DNA of 64,000 nucleotides from Gammaproteobacteria bacterium (GTDB lineage: Bacteria; Pseudomonadota; Gammaproteobacteria; JAJFKG01), in NCBI GenBank assembly GCA_965116795.1, contig OZ220716.1, positions 330,503 through 394,502 on the forward strand, given 5' to 3'. The position numbers and the translations under genes are program-made. Numbering within the stretch: position 1 is the first letter of the stretch; every line of letters begins with the position of its first letter. Under the pieces are notes generated by a model. The model ran no database searches. It was not told where the DNA came from and saw only the letters and a program-made list of their open reading frames with translations. This document shows positions 4,314 to 6,600 of the stretch, piece after piece.

Positions 4314-4342
4314 TTTACAAATCCAACATTTTTTAGTATATT
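4314..4342 (+). promoter_or_regulatory. Sigma70-type promoter upstream of the ankyrin gene
   Basis: TTTACA (4314-4319) - 17 bp - TATATT (4337-4342). Confidence 0.5.
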
Positions 4343-4351
4343 TCTCGCTAT

Positions 4352-4405
4352 GCTTGGCAGGGCTATACACAAATGCTCTCTCTTAGGTGTCAAGCTACCA
4401 GGCCA
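4352..4405 (+). repeat. Conserved leader stem-loop, copy 1
   Basis: Outer stem gcttggca/tgtcaagc, inner stem gggc/gctc, then the 15-bp caagctaccaggcca identical to copy 2 (6279-6293). Confidence 0.7.
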
Positions 4406-4588
4406 TATCTATCTTGTTACTTTACTCCAGTTCGTTATGCAGTTCGCATCGCTAGTGAAATGTTTGAGTTAAAAAATCAGCTTTTGTTGGGTATATACAA
4501 ACAAAATGTATTGTTATATCTTCTTTGCAAAGTGATTTTAGACGTAAAATCATAAAACTAAATTATCACATTTTCTAAGGAGAGCAAA

Positions 4589-6172
4589 ATGGCACAACCT
4601 CATGGATATGATTCTTTACATATTGATTACATTGCACATAATGAGTTGATACCTCTTGCTACTGCCTTGCAGCCTGCTGATGCCGCTTATTTATCTCCGG
4701 CGTTCGTTCGTATACCTCTGCCTCCTCGCCCATATCCGCGTCCTAGAGGATATTTTGAGGTTCAGTTCGATGAGTTAGCCAAGTCTGCACTTGAGGGAGA
4801 CGAAAATAGATTTAGAGAAGTATTTCAACAACTAATAGACAAAATAGGTGCTCGAAAACAATATGTTCCTCAGCCTGCACGCACTCTAAATGTATTTGCA
4901 GCTCCTCCTGCAGAACTAGATCTTGAGAACCTTGCTGCTCAGGGTAATTATGATTTGTTTCACATTCTTTGTGTGGCACGTAATTTCCCAGCAAGGTCTA
5001 GGCATGGGCTGTTACATAAGTGTTACGCTGAAACAATTCTACATCGTGCTATGTGGTCTAATAATCCCTTAGCAATTTTTGATGTAATTTTTAATGCGCC
5101 CCCTGAGCATCTTTCAATTGAACAAAAGAAATATTTACTAAGACTGCAGAATCATATGGATGCTGATAGAGGAGATACCATACTACATATTGCTGCCAGT
5201 AATGGTCGCCAACGAGACTGGGATATACTTTCTTATTTTCAAAGACCGGTTGCTAGAGGAGGTCTTGCTCTTTTTAATGATCCTGCTGATGATGTTAATC
5301 CACTAGCTGTTCGTAATACGTATGGTCGAACGCCTTACTTCATTGCGCGGATGAAGCAGCATGACGATTTAGCGGATTTGCTTGTTGGACCTGCTAGAAA
5401 ATACACGGACGATGATTATCAGCTTATAATACGAGTTAATCCTAATCCAGCAATACCTAATCTCCATATTTATGAGAAGTATACGACTGATGGATTACTA
5501 AGAGCTCGACCAATTCCTGATCCAGCTTATCCTGATGAGTATCAGCGAGAAAGAAATGGAGAGCATGTAGATGTTAGGCGTCGCAAAATAAGAGAGATTA
5601 GAGAAGAGAGTGTATATAGGGGTGTGTGGGACAGTTTAACAGACAAATTGGTACTTATTGCCTTTGGTCTTGCATTTTTTTCAGCAATATTTGCAATTTT
5701 ATCTCGCCACTTTACCAAAGTTGAAGATTGTAAGAGTATGGGTAAGGATGATAAAGATTTTGAAATTTATTTCTTCAAAGCACTATCATTTGTCTTCTTT
5801 GCTTTTTCTTTAGCATTGGCGGTTGGTAGCATATATCGTGAAACTAATTCCCTTATAAGGGGTACTAGAGCAAGACTCACCAGTAATAAACCACAATGGT
5901 GTGCTAGAAGTAGAGACACAAACTGTGCAGTGCGTAATTGGATCAGCGGAGCAGTGGGAGGGGTTGGATTGGCACTGCAGACAGTAGGCTTATTTGCAAT
6001 AGATAACGAATTAGCAAGTACTAGTATAACAACTATGACACCTGTTGTTGTTAATGCCCTTTTGGGGTTGCATGAAACCTCACTTGTAAAGCAAGAGGAA
6101 AGTATTAGAGAAATGATTGATGAGAAAGAAATTTATTTGGATGAACATTACCAACCTGAACTCGGCATATAG
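4589..6172 (+). CDS. Ankyrin-repeat protein with C-terminal transmembrane helices; Dot/Icm effector candidate
   Basis: ANK-like motifs TILHRAM, GDTILHIAASNG and GRTPYFIA; 3-4 hydrophobic helices after about aa 350; Glu-rich C-terminus QEESIREMIDEKEIYLDEHYQPELGI. Confidence 0.75.
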   Translation: MAQPHGYDSLHIDYIAHNELIPLATALQPADAAYLSPAFVRIPLPPRPYPRPRGYFEVQFDELAKSALEGDENRFREVFQQLIDKIGARKQYVPQPARTLNVFAAPPAELDLENLAAQGNYDLFHILCVARNFPARSRHGLLHKCYAETILHRAMWSNNPLAIFDVIFNAPPEHLSIEQKKYLLRLQNHMDADRGDTILHIAASNGRQRDWDILSYFQRPVARGGLALFNDPADDVNPLAVRNTYGRTPYFIARMKQHDDLADLLVGPARKYTDDDYQLIIRVNPNPAIPNLHIYEKYTTDGLLRARPIPDPAYPDEYQRERNGEHVDVRRRKIREIREESVYRGVWDSLTDKLVLIAFGLAFFSAIFAILSRHFTKVEDCKSMGKDDKDFEIYFFKALSFVFFAFSLALAVGSIYRETNSLIRGTRARLTSNKPQWCARSRDTNCAVRNWISGAVGGVGLALQTVGLFAIDNELASTSITTMTPVVVNALLGLHETSLVKQEESIREMIDEKEIYLDEHYQPELGI

Positions 6173-6202
6173 ATATTAGTAGTATGTATTTTGTAGTGCT
6201 AC

Positions 6203-6231
6203 TTGAGCAAATGAGTATTGTAGGGTACTAT
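6203..6231 (+). promoter_or_regulatory. Sigma70-type promoter upstream of the lyase-like gene
   Basis: TTGAGC (6203-6208) - 17 bp - TACTAT (6226-6231). Confidence 0.5.
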
Positions 6232-6238
6232 TCTCACA

Positions 6239-6293
6239 GCTTGGCAGAGCCAACAGCTCTCCGGCTCCTCTAGGCAGCCAAGCTACCAGGCCA
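6239..6293 (+). repeat. Conserved leader stem-loop, copy 2
   Basis: Outer stem gcttggc/gccaagc, inner stem gagcc/ggctc, and caagctaccaggcca shared with 4391-4405. Confidence 0.7.
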
Positions 6294-6600
6294 ATATCGT
6301 AGGCCAGGTCACAGGTTTTTATGGAGCTCCTTTCTCCAAAATAGTGGCTGCTGAATAGCAATATTTAGCAGCCGCCTTGCTTGTCAGAGCGGGAAGATTT
6401 TCAAGTAAATCTCTTACAGAAAAAGGTACTTACCAAGGTCAAAAAGTATACGGGCACCCTGTGCGCCCGAGTTCGTTAGCGATAGCACTCGAAAAATGGT
6501 TTCCAGTTTCCAGGGTTTCCGATATAGTTATCTATACAAGAGCTAAACCTAACTTGTATACTACAAATTCAATGAATAAACTAAAAAAGGGCATTAATAA

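What the first reader, a model, noticed from the sequence alone, without database searches (positions are those of the whole stretch)
4314..6300. Same promoter-plus-stem-loop cassette in front of two different effector-like genes
Both the ankyrin gene and the lyase-like gene have a -35/17 bp/-10 promoter followed 8-10 nt later by a shared stem-loop and the identical 15-mer CAAGCTACCAGGCCA. The stems differ compatibly (G-U versus G-C in the outer stem, G-U versus A-U in the inner stem) while the loops differ freely, which is what selection on RNA structure looks like. It sits at the 5' end of long leaders (about 240 and 360 nt). Candidate new cis-regulatory RNA (riboswitch, thermometer or protein-binding leader) co-regulating phage-borne effectors.
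Basis: partly seen in the sequence, partly recalled or inferred. Interest (0 to 1): 0.7.

Follow-up and report, generated by a model that had tools for sequence, protein, structure and literature searches.

The report
Shared promoter-leader module in sibling prophages
A 55-base sequence sitting right behind a promoter occurs twice in this prophage and twice in a sister prophage of the same genome, so it is a real control-type element of the phage backbone (function untested), not a switch specific to the effector-like genes.

Summary
A sigma-70-like promoter is followed 6-9 nt later by a 54-55-nt element, GCTTGGCAGRGC-[loop]-GCTCTC-[3-9 nt]-TAGG-[2-3 nt]-YCAAGCTACCAGGCCA, at window 4352-4405 (A) and 6239-6293 (B). 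New here: both types recur in one sister prophage of the same genome (about 88% identical). Homology between the two prophages stops at the last base of A's 15-mer and resumes at B, so the elements bracket a swappable cargo slot: the ankyrin gene here, unrelated small ORFs there. In the sister prophage B leads straight into the small-terminase gene with no lyase gene. B therefore belongs to the phage's packaging/late leader, which is significantly structured on the + strand and ends in a core shared by all ~10 related prophages. No copy was found in 60 relatives, three public contig collections, GenBank phages, 71 related viral loci or Rfam. The evidence for RNA structure is thin: there are only two independent sequences, the stem changes are one-sided wobble changes, and the element's own fold is no better than shuffles. 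Best reading (about 0.35): a promoter-proximal transcribed control site like nut or put. Riboswitch and thermometer are unlikely. No RNA-seq was available.

The parts
3518..4351 (+). Conserved non-coding block shared with the sister prophage (88% identity). It is AT-rich with GTTAAC palindromes and 51-nt inverted repeats, and it ends in promoter A.
   Evidence: blastn of window 3518-4405 against genome 127180-126279; inverted repeats; no Pfam-bearing ORF
4314..4342 (+). Promoter A, TTTACA-17-TATATT; identical hexamers in the sister copy
4352..4405 (+). Element A (54 nt): GCTTGGCAGGGC, 11-nt loop, GCTCTC, TCTTAGGTG, TCAAGCTACCAGGCCA. Homology to the sister prophage ends at 4405.
4406..6195 (+). 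Variable cargo slot: the A leader plus the ankyrin-like gene (4589-6172). It is replaced by an unrelated 713-nt segment with small ORFs in the sister prophage.
   Evidence: Pfam Ank_2 E=2e-5, below the gathering score
6203..6231 (+). Promoter B, TTGAGC-17-TACTAT. The sister copy has TTGAAT-16-TATGAT at the same place although the surrounding bases have diverged.
6239..6293 (+). Element B (55 nt): GCTTGGCAGAGC, 5-nt loop, GCTCTC, CGGCTCCTCTAGGCAG, CCAAGCTACCAGGCCA
6294..6424 (+). Structured B leader, including a 12-14-bp hairpin at 6344-6375 with a U-poor tail (terminator-like) and an adjacent hairpin at 6376-6393; about 95% identical in the sister prophage
   Evidence: z -3.4 on the + strand; z -1.4 on the - strand
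6425..6500 (+). Core shared by all related prophages of this genome (cos-like or late-control region). Homology between the two sister prophages ends at 6500.
6498..6521 (+). Three tandem GTTTCC repeats. These repeats are phage-specific: GTACGAA in the sister prophage and GGTT[T/C]GCA in the others. They are candidate small-terminase binding repeats.
6601..7302 (+). Lyase-like cargo gene, absent from the sister prophage
   Evidence: Pfam RamC_N E=4e-5, below the gathering score
7960..10553 (+). Small terminase (7960-8523) and gpA-type large terminase (8529-10553): the start of the late operon

Best explanation
The element is the transcribed, promoter-proximal part of a portable promoter-plus-leader module that belongs to the phage backbone.

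A sigma-70-type promoter places +1 within 0-2 nt of the foot of a ~55-nt RNA. That RNA has two sequence-conserved helices (GCUUGGC with GYCAAGC; AGRGC with GCUCU), loops of variable length, and a conserved 3' tail whose CCAGGC can pair with the same 5' arm as an alternative.

Copy A heads a swappable cargo slot. Copy B heads the structured leader that runs through a terminator-like hairpin and the prophage-family core into the terminase/late operon; here a lyase-like gene has been inserted into that path.

Proposed mechanism: the nascent element is recognised sequence-specifically, by RNA polymerase itself or by an unidentified phage or host factor. This is how lambda nut and HK022 put sites work in two operons of one phage. 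Recognition would make transcription from both promoters resistant to the leader's stop signal.

Shown: the repeat, its promoter linkage, its position at the cargo junctions, and its link to the terminase leader in the sister prophage. Inferred: that it is transcribed, that it acts as RNA, and antitermination.
For: - There are four copies, two types in each of two prophages, all exact in the 9-mer and the 15-mer although the prophages differ by 5-12% around them.
- Promoter hexamers are kept 6-9 nt upstream in A, B and the diverged sister B; the chance frequencies are 0.0009, 0.04 and 0.008.
- The indels between A and B fall in the hairpin loop and the internal loop, and all 12 pairs form in all copies.
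- All four substitutions since the prophage split lie in unpaired positions.
- G-U pairs make the fold better on the + strand than on the - strand (-13.0 vs -9.7 kcal/mol for A).
- The B leader is significantly structured on the + strand only (z -3.4 vs -1.4). Three transitions in its 12-bp hairpin core keep pairing through G-U.
- In the sister prophage nothing but this leader lies between promoter B and the small-terminase gene. A constitutive promoter there would need a stop signal and a way past it.
- HK022 putL likewise starts just downstream of its promoter, is about 70 nt long, and has a sequence-related second copy in another operon (PMC9378689).
Against:
- There are only two independent sequences, and the stem changes are one-sided.
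- The element's own fold is no better than shuffles, and the minimum-energy fold uses a different closing helix.
- The hairpin at 6344-6375 has a weak U tract, and two substitutions open its outermost pairs in the sister copy.
- Copy A has no terminator before the ankyrin gene.
- No Q-family antiterminator or phage NusG paralog is encoded.
- The phages carry an ECF-like sigma factor that could control late genes instead.
- Conserved stems with scrambled loops also fit a DNA binding site.
Confidence: 0.35

Rival explanations
1. Inactive footprint of cargo exchange. The promoter plus element was duplicated when a cargo gene was recombined in, and the similarity persists through recency or gene conversion, without any function of its own beyond the promoter.
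For: The junctions of the variable segment coincide with the element edges. The family is confined to one genome. Folding is not significant. Conservation since the prophage split is only mildly above the flanks: 3 of 54 and 1 of 55 changes, against 12% and 5%.
Against: The A/B duplication predates the split of the two prophages, and both types were kept in both. Identity is bimodal: 24 bases are perfect while the interior is near random and has indels, which neutral decay does not give. Promoter hexamers are preserved in front of B although the spacer has diverged.
Confidence: 0.2
2. DNA-level operator. A phage regulator binds the repeated half-site GCYTGGYA (one forward copy, two tandem reverse copies) at +1 to +55 and represses or activates both promoters together.
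For: The stems are conserved in sequence rather than covarying. The 15-mer is two tandem copies of CCARGC, complementary to the 5' arm. In the other prophages of the genome, an 8-mer GGTT[T/C]GCA recurs 24-31 nt after a TTGAAT-type box (about 35 nt after a CTGAAT box in two copies), in inverted or direct orientation, so there the motif rather than a hairpin is the conserved feature.
Against: Half-sites 30 nt apart and tandem sites at an 8-bp period are unusual for a dimeric regulator. The wobble positions make the A-type arms imperfect at the DNA level. The 8-mer is not clearly enriched elsewhere in the prophages (70 observed vs about 40 expected, uncorrected for base composition). No candidate binding protein was identified.
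Confidence: 0.15
3. Plain 5'-terminal stabilising stem-loop. It protects long, AU-rich, untranslated leaders from 5'-end-dependent decay, as described for ompA-type leaders (from my own knowledge).
For: The predicted +1 lies within 0-2 nt of the helix foot in every copy. The leaders are long, 239-450 nt.
Against: A stabiliser needs structure, not sequence. This does not explain the perfect identity of 22 of 24 stem bases and of the tail, while the loops are scrambled.
Confidence: 0.15
4. Site-specific recombination site (att-like, integron attC-like, or IS200/IS605-type end hairpin) that mobilises the cargo between two direct copies.
For: Direct repeats of a hairpin-forming site bracket a variable cassette. 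The homology break is exactly at the end of the 15-mer, 10 nt past the hairpin foot. Seven Y1 transposase genes are present in the genome.
Against: There is no integron integrase and no attC R-box consensus. The genome's IS200-like ends carry unrelated hairpins. There are only two sites per prophage and no recombinase in or beside the cassettes. No copies lie outside the two prophages.
Confidence: 0.07
5. Riboswitch or RNA thermometer, as proposed by the first reader.
For: The element has a leader position, and two alternative closing helices are possible.
Against: It is a small element with conserved helices and variable loops. It is far from both ribosome-binding sites, and copy A has no expression platform. 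There is no Rfam match even at E<5. Only copy A shows complementarity to its gene's ribosome-binding site.
Confidence: 0.03

Closest known systems
HK022 put RNAs (putL, putR)
   Same: They are cis-acting RNA elements of about 70 nt with stem-loops, present twice in one phage in two transcription units and sequence-related to each other. putL starts just downstream of its promoter (PMC9378689).
   Different: There is no sequence or Rfam similarity. This element is shorter (55 nt) and has one closing helix plus one inner hairpin, rather than a V of two long stems. The two copies lie in tandem on one strand near the late genes, not in divergent early operons. Activity is untested.
Lambda nutL/nutR (boxA plus boxB) with N protein
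   Same: Conserved short blocks are separated by a variable spacer, and the site is repeated promoter-proximally in two operons of the same phage. A GCUCU(C) block loosely recalls boxA CGCUCUUA (from my own knowledge).
   Different: The boxA match is partial. No N-like protein could be recognised, and no boxB-type 15-nt hairpin is present.
Lambda PR'-qut-6S RNA-tR' late leader
   Same: A promoter is followed by a short structured leader with a terminator-like hairpin ahead of the late or packaging genes, and cargo genes are inserted in that path, as stx genes are in Stx phages (from my own knowledge).
   Different: No Q-family gene is present. There is no -10-like pause element shared by A and B in the first transcribed bases. 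The hairpin's U tract is weak.
Phage morons (a gene with its own promoter inserted between backbone genes) and conserved junction sequences of mosaic phages
   Same: Cargo genes sit between backbone blocks, each behind a promoter, and exchange points fall at short conserved non-coding sequences.
   Different: Here the same promoter-proximal element is reused at two adjacent slots, and it belongs to the backbone side of the junction.
Integron attC sites
   Same: They are hairpin-forming sites with conserved stems and variable loops lying at cassette boundaries in direct orientation.
   Different: There is no integron integrase, no R''/R' consensus, only two sites per locus, and a promoter is attached to each site.

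Membership tests
Rfam cis-regulatory families (riboswitches, thermometers, leaders) | Match to a curated covariance model | tested here: not met
   No match at gathering score in the whole window. At E<5 over 3300-6700 nothing overlaps element A; the only match touching element B is a c-di-GMP-I hit on the opposite strand (6270-6340) at 17 bits against a gathering score of 35.
HK022 put-type antiterminator RNA | Two long stem-loops of about 70 nt forming a V that binds the RNA polymerase beta' zinc-binding domain | tested here: not met
   The predicted folds give one closing helix with one or two short inner hairpins in 54-55 nt. Binding to polymerase cannot be tested here.
HK022 put-type antiterminator RNA | Suppresses downstream terminators in cis | not testable with these tools
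   A terminator-like hairpin lies 50 nt downstream of B, but there are no functional data.
Lambda-type nut site | boxA consensus plus a boxB hairpin, and a phage N-like protein | tested here: inconclusive
   Only a partial boxA-like GCUCU(C) is present. No boxB equivalent was found, and N-like proteins are too small and diverse to be recognised.
Q-dependent late promoter (qut) | A phage Q antiterminator gene | tested here: not met
   PF06530 and PF03589 are absent from the genome.
Integron attC / cassette array | IntI integrase and R''-L''...L'-R' boxes (RYYYAAC / GTTRRRY) | tested here: not met
   TIGR02249: no match over the cut-off. The arms are GCTTGGC/GCCAAGC, not the R-box consensus.
IS200/IS605-type ends or their non-autonomous derivatives | End hairpins matching those of a resident Y1 transposase element | tested here: not met
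   Seven Y1 transposase copies exist, but their end hairpins are unrelated to the element.
Interspersed hairpin repeat (MITE/REP-like) | Many copies scattered in unrelated contexts | tested here: not met
   The covariance model finds only the four syntenic copies in 2.45 Mb.
Intrinsic terminator | GC-rich hairpin directly followed by a U run | tested here: not met
   Neither element copy is listed by the terminator scan, and no T run follows on either strand.
tRNA or tRNA-derived att fragment | tRNA model match | tested here: not met
   ARAGORN finds none in the window and there is no tRNA hit at E<5. A 10-mer on the opposite strand resembles a tRNA D-arm, which is within chance.

The most novel reading that the evidence does not exclude
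The element is a previously undescribed promoter-proximal RNA. It would act either as a processive antiterminator without a dedicated factor, like put, or as a bistable 5' switch that uses its two alternative closing helices. In a prophage of an intracellular, Dot/Icm-type bacterium (per earlier scan notes) it would couple expression of host-directed cargo genes and of the phage late operon to one signal.
Probability: 0.12. Interest if true: 0.6.

Novelty: new variant of a known kind. Interest (0 to 1): 0.3.

Why it matters
If the element is active, it would show how a temperate phage wires newly acquired host-directed genes into its own control circuit: it would reuse one promoter-plus-leader module at successive cargo slots. 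It would also add a second natural example class to the very small set of promoter-proximal phage RNA control sites (nut, put). As it stands, it is a lineage-restricted element known from four copies in one genome, with no expression data. The firm result is structural: the element marks the borders of a swappable cargo slot just upstream of the packaging genes.

Tried and rejected
**Searches for further copies, all negative**
- Covariance model R1 on the window's own genome found only the four copies.
- R1 on 60 relatives gave only hits at E>=0.006, consistent with chance.
- blastn of 3300-8600 against the same-genus and same-family genomes gave one 29-nt AT-rich hit.
- Pattern scans of genome contigs gave 9 hits in unrelated taxa; my estimate of chance hits is about 28.
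- Pattern scans of viral contigs gave 2 hits, both inspected and both in coding, unrelated sequence.
- The metagenome contigs pattern scan gave 0 hits.
- blastn against GenBank phages gave no match.
- R1 on 71 viral loci encoding related large terminases gave nothing.
- Exact look-ups of the ankyrin-like and lyase-like proteins found nothing on record.
- Viral relatives of two proteins specific to this prophage pair: none.

**Hypotheses considered and dropped**
- Sigma-54 promoter: TGGCAG is present but the -12 element and the spacing do not fit on either strand (read from the sequence).
- Small-terminase binding site (cosB-type): the element is identical in two phages whose small terminases are only 46% identical, and a better candidate repeat lies at 6498-6521.
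- sRNA seed: sequences complementary to the 15-mer are not enriched (22 hits vs about 28 expected).
- Leader peptide: the short ORF at 6321 is frame-shifted in the sister copy.
- CsrA site: there is no GGA in the loops (read from the sequence).

Full report
**1. What is there**

The window is G000:C1:330503-394502 of a 2.45-Mb, 41% G+C, single-contig genome.

The 15-mer CAAGCTACCAGGCCA is exact at 4391 and 6279. GCTTGGCAG lies 39-40 nt upstream of each. MAFFT misaligns the interior. Aligned by eye the element reads:

GCTTGGCAGRGC - loop (11 nt in A, 5 nt in B) - GCTCTC - 3 or 9 nt - TAGG - 2-3 nt - YCAAGCTACCAGGCCA

The indels therefore fall in a hairpin loop and an internal loop. A carries G-U where B has G-C (outer) or A-U (inner).

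Promoter-like hexamers precede both copies:
- A: TTTACA-17-TATATT.
- B: TTGAGC-17-TACTAT.

They end 9 nt (A) and 7 nt (B) before the element. Promoters of that quality at that distance occur at 0.09% (A) and 4% (B) of random genome positions.

**2. More copies, but only in a sister prophage**

The genome holds exactly four copies. Types A and B both recur at 126.3 and 125.5 kb on the minus strand. That region is a prophage ("P") about 88% identical to the one in the window ("W"). About ten related prophage copies exist in all.

The A/B duplication therefore predates the W/P split, and both types were kept in both prophages. Since the split, A acquired 3 substitutions and B acquired 1, all in unpaired positions. 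In front of B the flanks have diverged, but a promoter is still there in P (TTGAAT-16-TATGAT, 9 of 12).

**3. The element marks a cargo slot and belongs to the backbone**

W-P homology runs from 3518 to 4405. It stops at the last base of A's 15-mer and resumes at 6238, one base before B.
- Between A and B, W has the ankyrin-like gene. P has an unrelated 713-nt segment with small ORFs.
- Downstream of B, homology continues to 6500 at 94.7%, the best-conserved block of the whole comparison.
- After 6500, W carries the lyase-like gene, a 189-aa ORF and the small-terminase gene. In P the small-terminase gene follows directly.

So B is the head of the leader of the packaging/late operon, and the lyase-like gene is an insertion into that path. 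The belt upstream is cargo in both phages: ParDE and Fic in W, HicAB in P.

**4. The B leader**

Window 6239-6395 folds better than 199 of 200 shuffles on the + strand (z -3.4). On the - strand it does not (z -1.4). The dominant feature is a 12-14-bp hairpin at 6344-6375. The terminator scan flags it, although its U tract is weak.

Between W and P, three transitions inside this hairpin keep pairing through G-U on the + strand, while two changes open the outermost pairs.

The last ~75 nt of the block (6425-6500) are homologous to a non-coding core upstream of the methylase and small-terminase genes in the other prophages. In each phage this core is followed by 2-3 tandem 7-8-mers that differ from phage to phage. 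The DNA-binding end of the small terminase varies along with them. This looks like a cos-type region and explains the homology break at 6500.

**5. What the element is not**
- It matches no Rfam family, even at E<5, and no tRNA.
- It is not a scattered repeat.
- It is not an intrinsic terminator.
- It is not an integron site.
- It is not related to the end hairpins of the genome's seven IS200-type elements.
- No copy exists in 60 relatives, the same-genus and same-family genomes, three public contig collections, GenBank phages, or 71 viral loci with related terminases.

**6. How strong is the RNA case?**

It is weak to moderate.

In favour:
- promoter linkage in three semi-independent contexts;
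- indels confined to loops;
- wobble pairs that favour the + strand;
- a structured + strand leader downstream of B.

Against:
- only two independent sequences;
- two one-sided transitions (my estimate p about 0.25), with no double compensatory change;
- element folds no better than shuffles;
- a competing closing helix, GCUUGG with the CCAGGC of the 15-mer, which wins the minimum-energy fold in all four copies.

The striking feature is bimodal conservation: 24 terminal bases are perfect while the interior is near random. This points to sequence-specific recognition rather than a merely structural hairpin. It fits an RNA-binding factor, RNA polymerase itself, or a DNA-binding protein about equally well.

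In the other prophages an 8-mer (GGTT[T/C]GCA) recurs 24-31 nt after a TTGAAT-type box (about 35 nt in two copies), sometimes as inverted and sometimes as direct repeats. That keeps the DNA-site reading alive.

**7. Mechanism**

In P a reasonable sigma-70 promoter is separated from the late genes only by this leader. A prophage must keep those genes silent. So either the promoter is repressed (operator model), or transcription stops in the leader and is released on induction (antitermination model).

I favour the second, with the element as a nut- or put-like loading site. HK022 putL likewise begins just downstream of its promoter and has a related second copy in another operon (PMC9378689). 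My confidence is only about 0.35.

No Q-type antiterminator or phage NusG paralog is encoded. All prophage copies do carry a divergent ECF-like sigma factor that could be the late regulator instead.

For copy A only, the element's GCUCUC(U)CUUAG is complementary to the ankyrin gene's ribosome-binding region. This pairing appears in the centroid fold. It is not shared by B and may be chance.

**8. Verdict**

This is a real, lineage-restricted promoter-plus-leader module of a prophage backbone. Interest is modest until 5' ends and read-through are measured.

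Noticed in passing
window 6425-6521; genome 1120930-1121020 and the equivalent sites in the other prophage copies: A ~75-nt non-coding core is shared by the related prophages where the alignment was checked (W, P and five other copies). It is followed by 2-3 tandem 7-8-mers that are phage-specific: GTTTCC here, GTACGAA in the sister prophage, GGTT[T/C]GCA in the others. These vary in step with the N-terminal helix-turn-helix of the small terminase. It looks like a cos site with terminase-binding repeats.
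   Followed up: partly
L038:6580-7119 (-), genome 318582-319118: A 179-aa divergent ECF-like sigma factor (phrog_1740 E=6e-10; TIGR02937 E=4e-6 over its full length). It is present in this prophage, its sister prophage and six other prophage copies (tblastn). It is a candidate late-gene regulator of this phage family.
   Followed up: partly
genome 1121000-1121390 and the equivalent sites upstream of the ParB-methylase genes of the other prophages: There are five to eight copies of the 8-mer GGTT[T/C]GCA in both orientations. There are one to three boxes TAACTCATTGAATTT, each about 24-31 nt before a motif pair. Some pairs form hairpins that would be intrinsic terminators on the opposite strand.
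   Followed up: partly
window 4375-4386 with 4575-4585: The CU-rich internal segment of element A is complementary, with one bulged U, to the ankyrin gene's ribosome-binding region CUAAGGAGAGC. The pairing appears in the centroid fold of the leader. It was not seen for copy B.
   Followed up: partly
window 1063-3518 versus genome 133038-127180: The same backbone slots carry different toxin-antitoxin cargo in the two sister prophages: ParDE and a Fic protein here, HicAB in the sister. A short conserved linker (2062-2208) lies between the slots.
   Followed up: partly
genome 1186845-1187207 and six other sites: There are seven IS200-type Y1 transposase genes in two subfamilies, one of them inserted inside a prophage copy (around 1.186 Mb).
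   Followed up: partly
window 3660-4140: The GTTAAC-containing palindromes of this non-coding block have a counterpart in the other prophages: eight or more GTTAAC sites in the ~900 nt before their shared core (seen in the copy at genome 1119990-1120860). This suggests a common origin-like or methylase-related function.
   Followed up: no
genome 124277-124483: The sister prophage has a second, partial match to the C-terminal third of the small terminase just downstream of its small-terminase gene.
   Followed up: no
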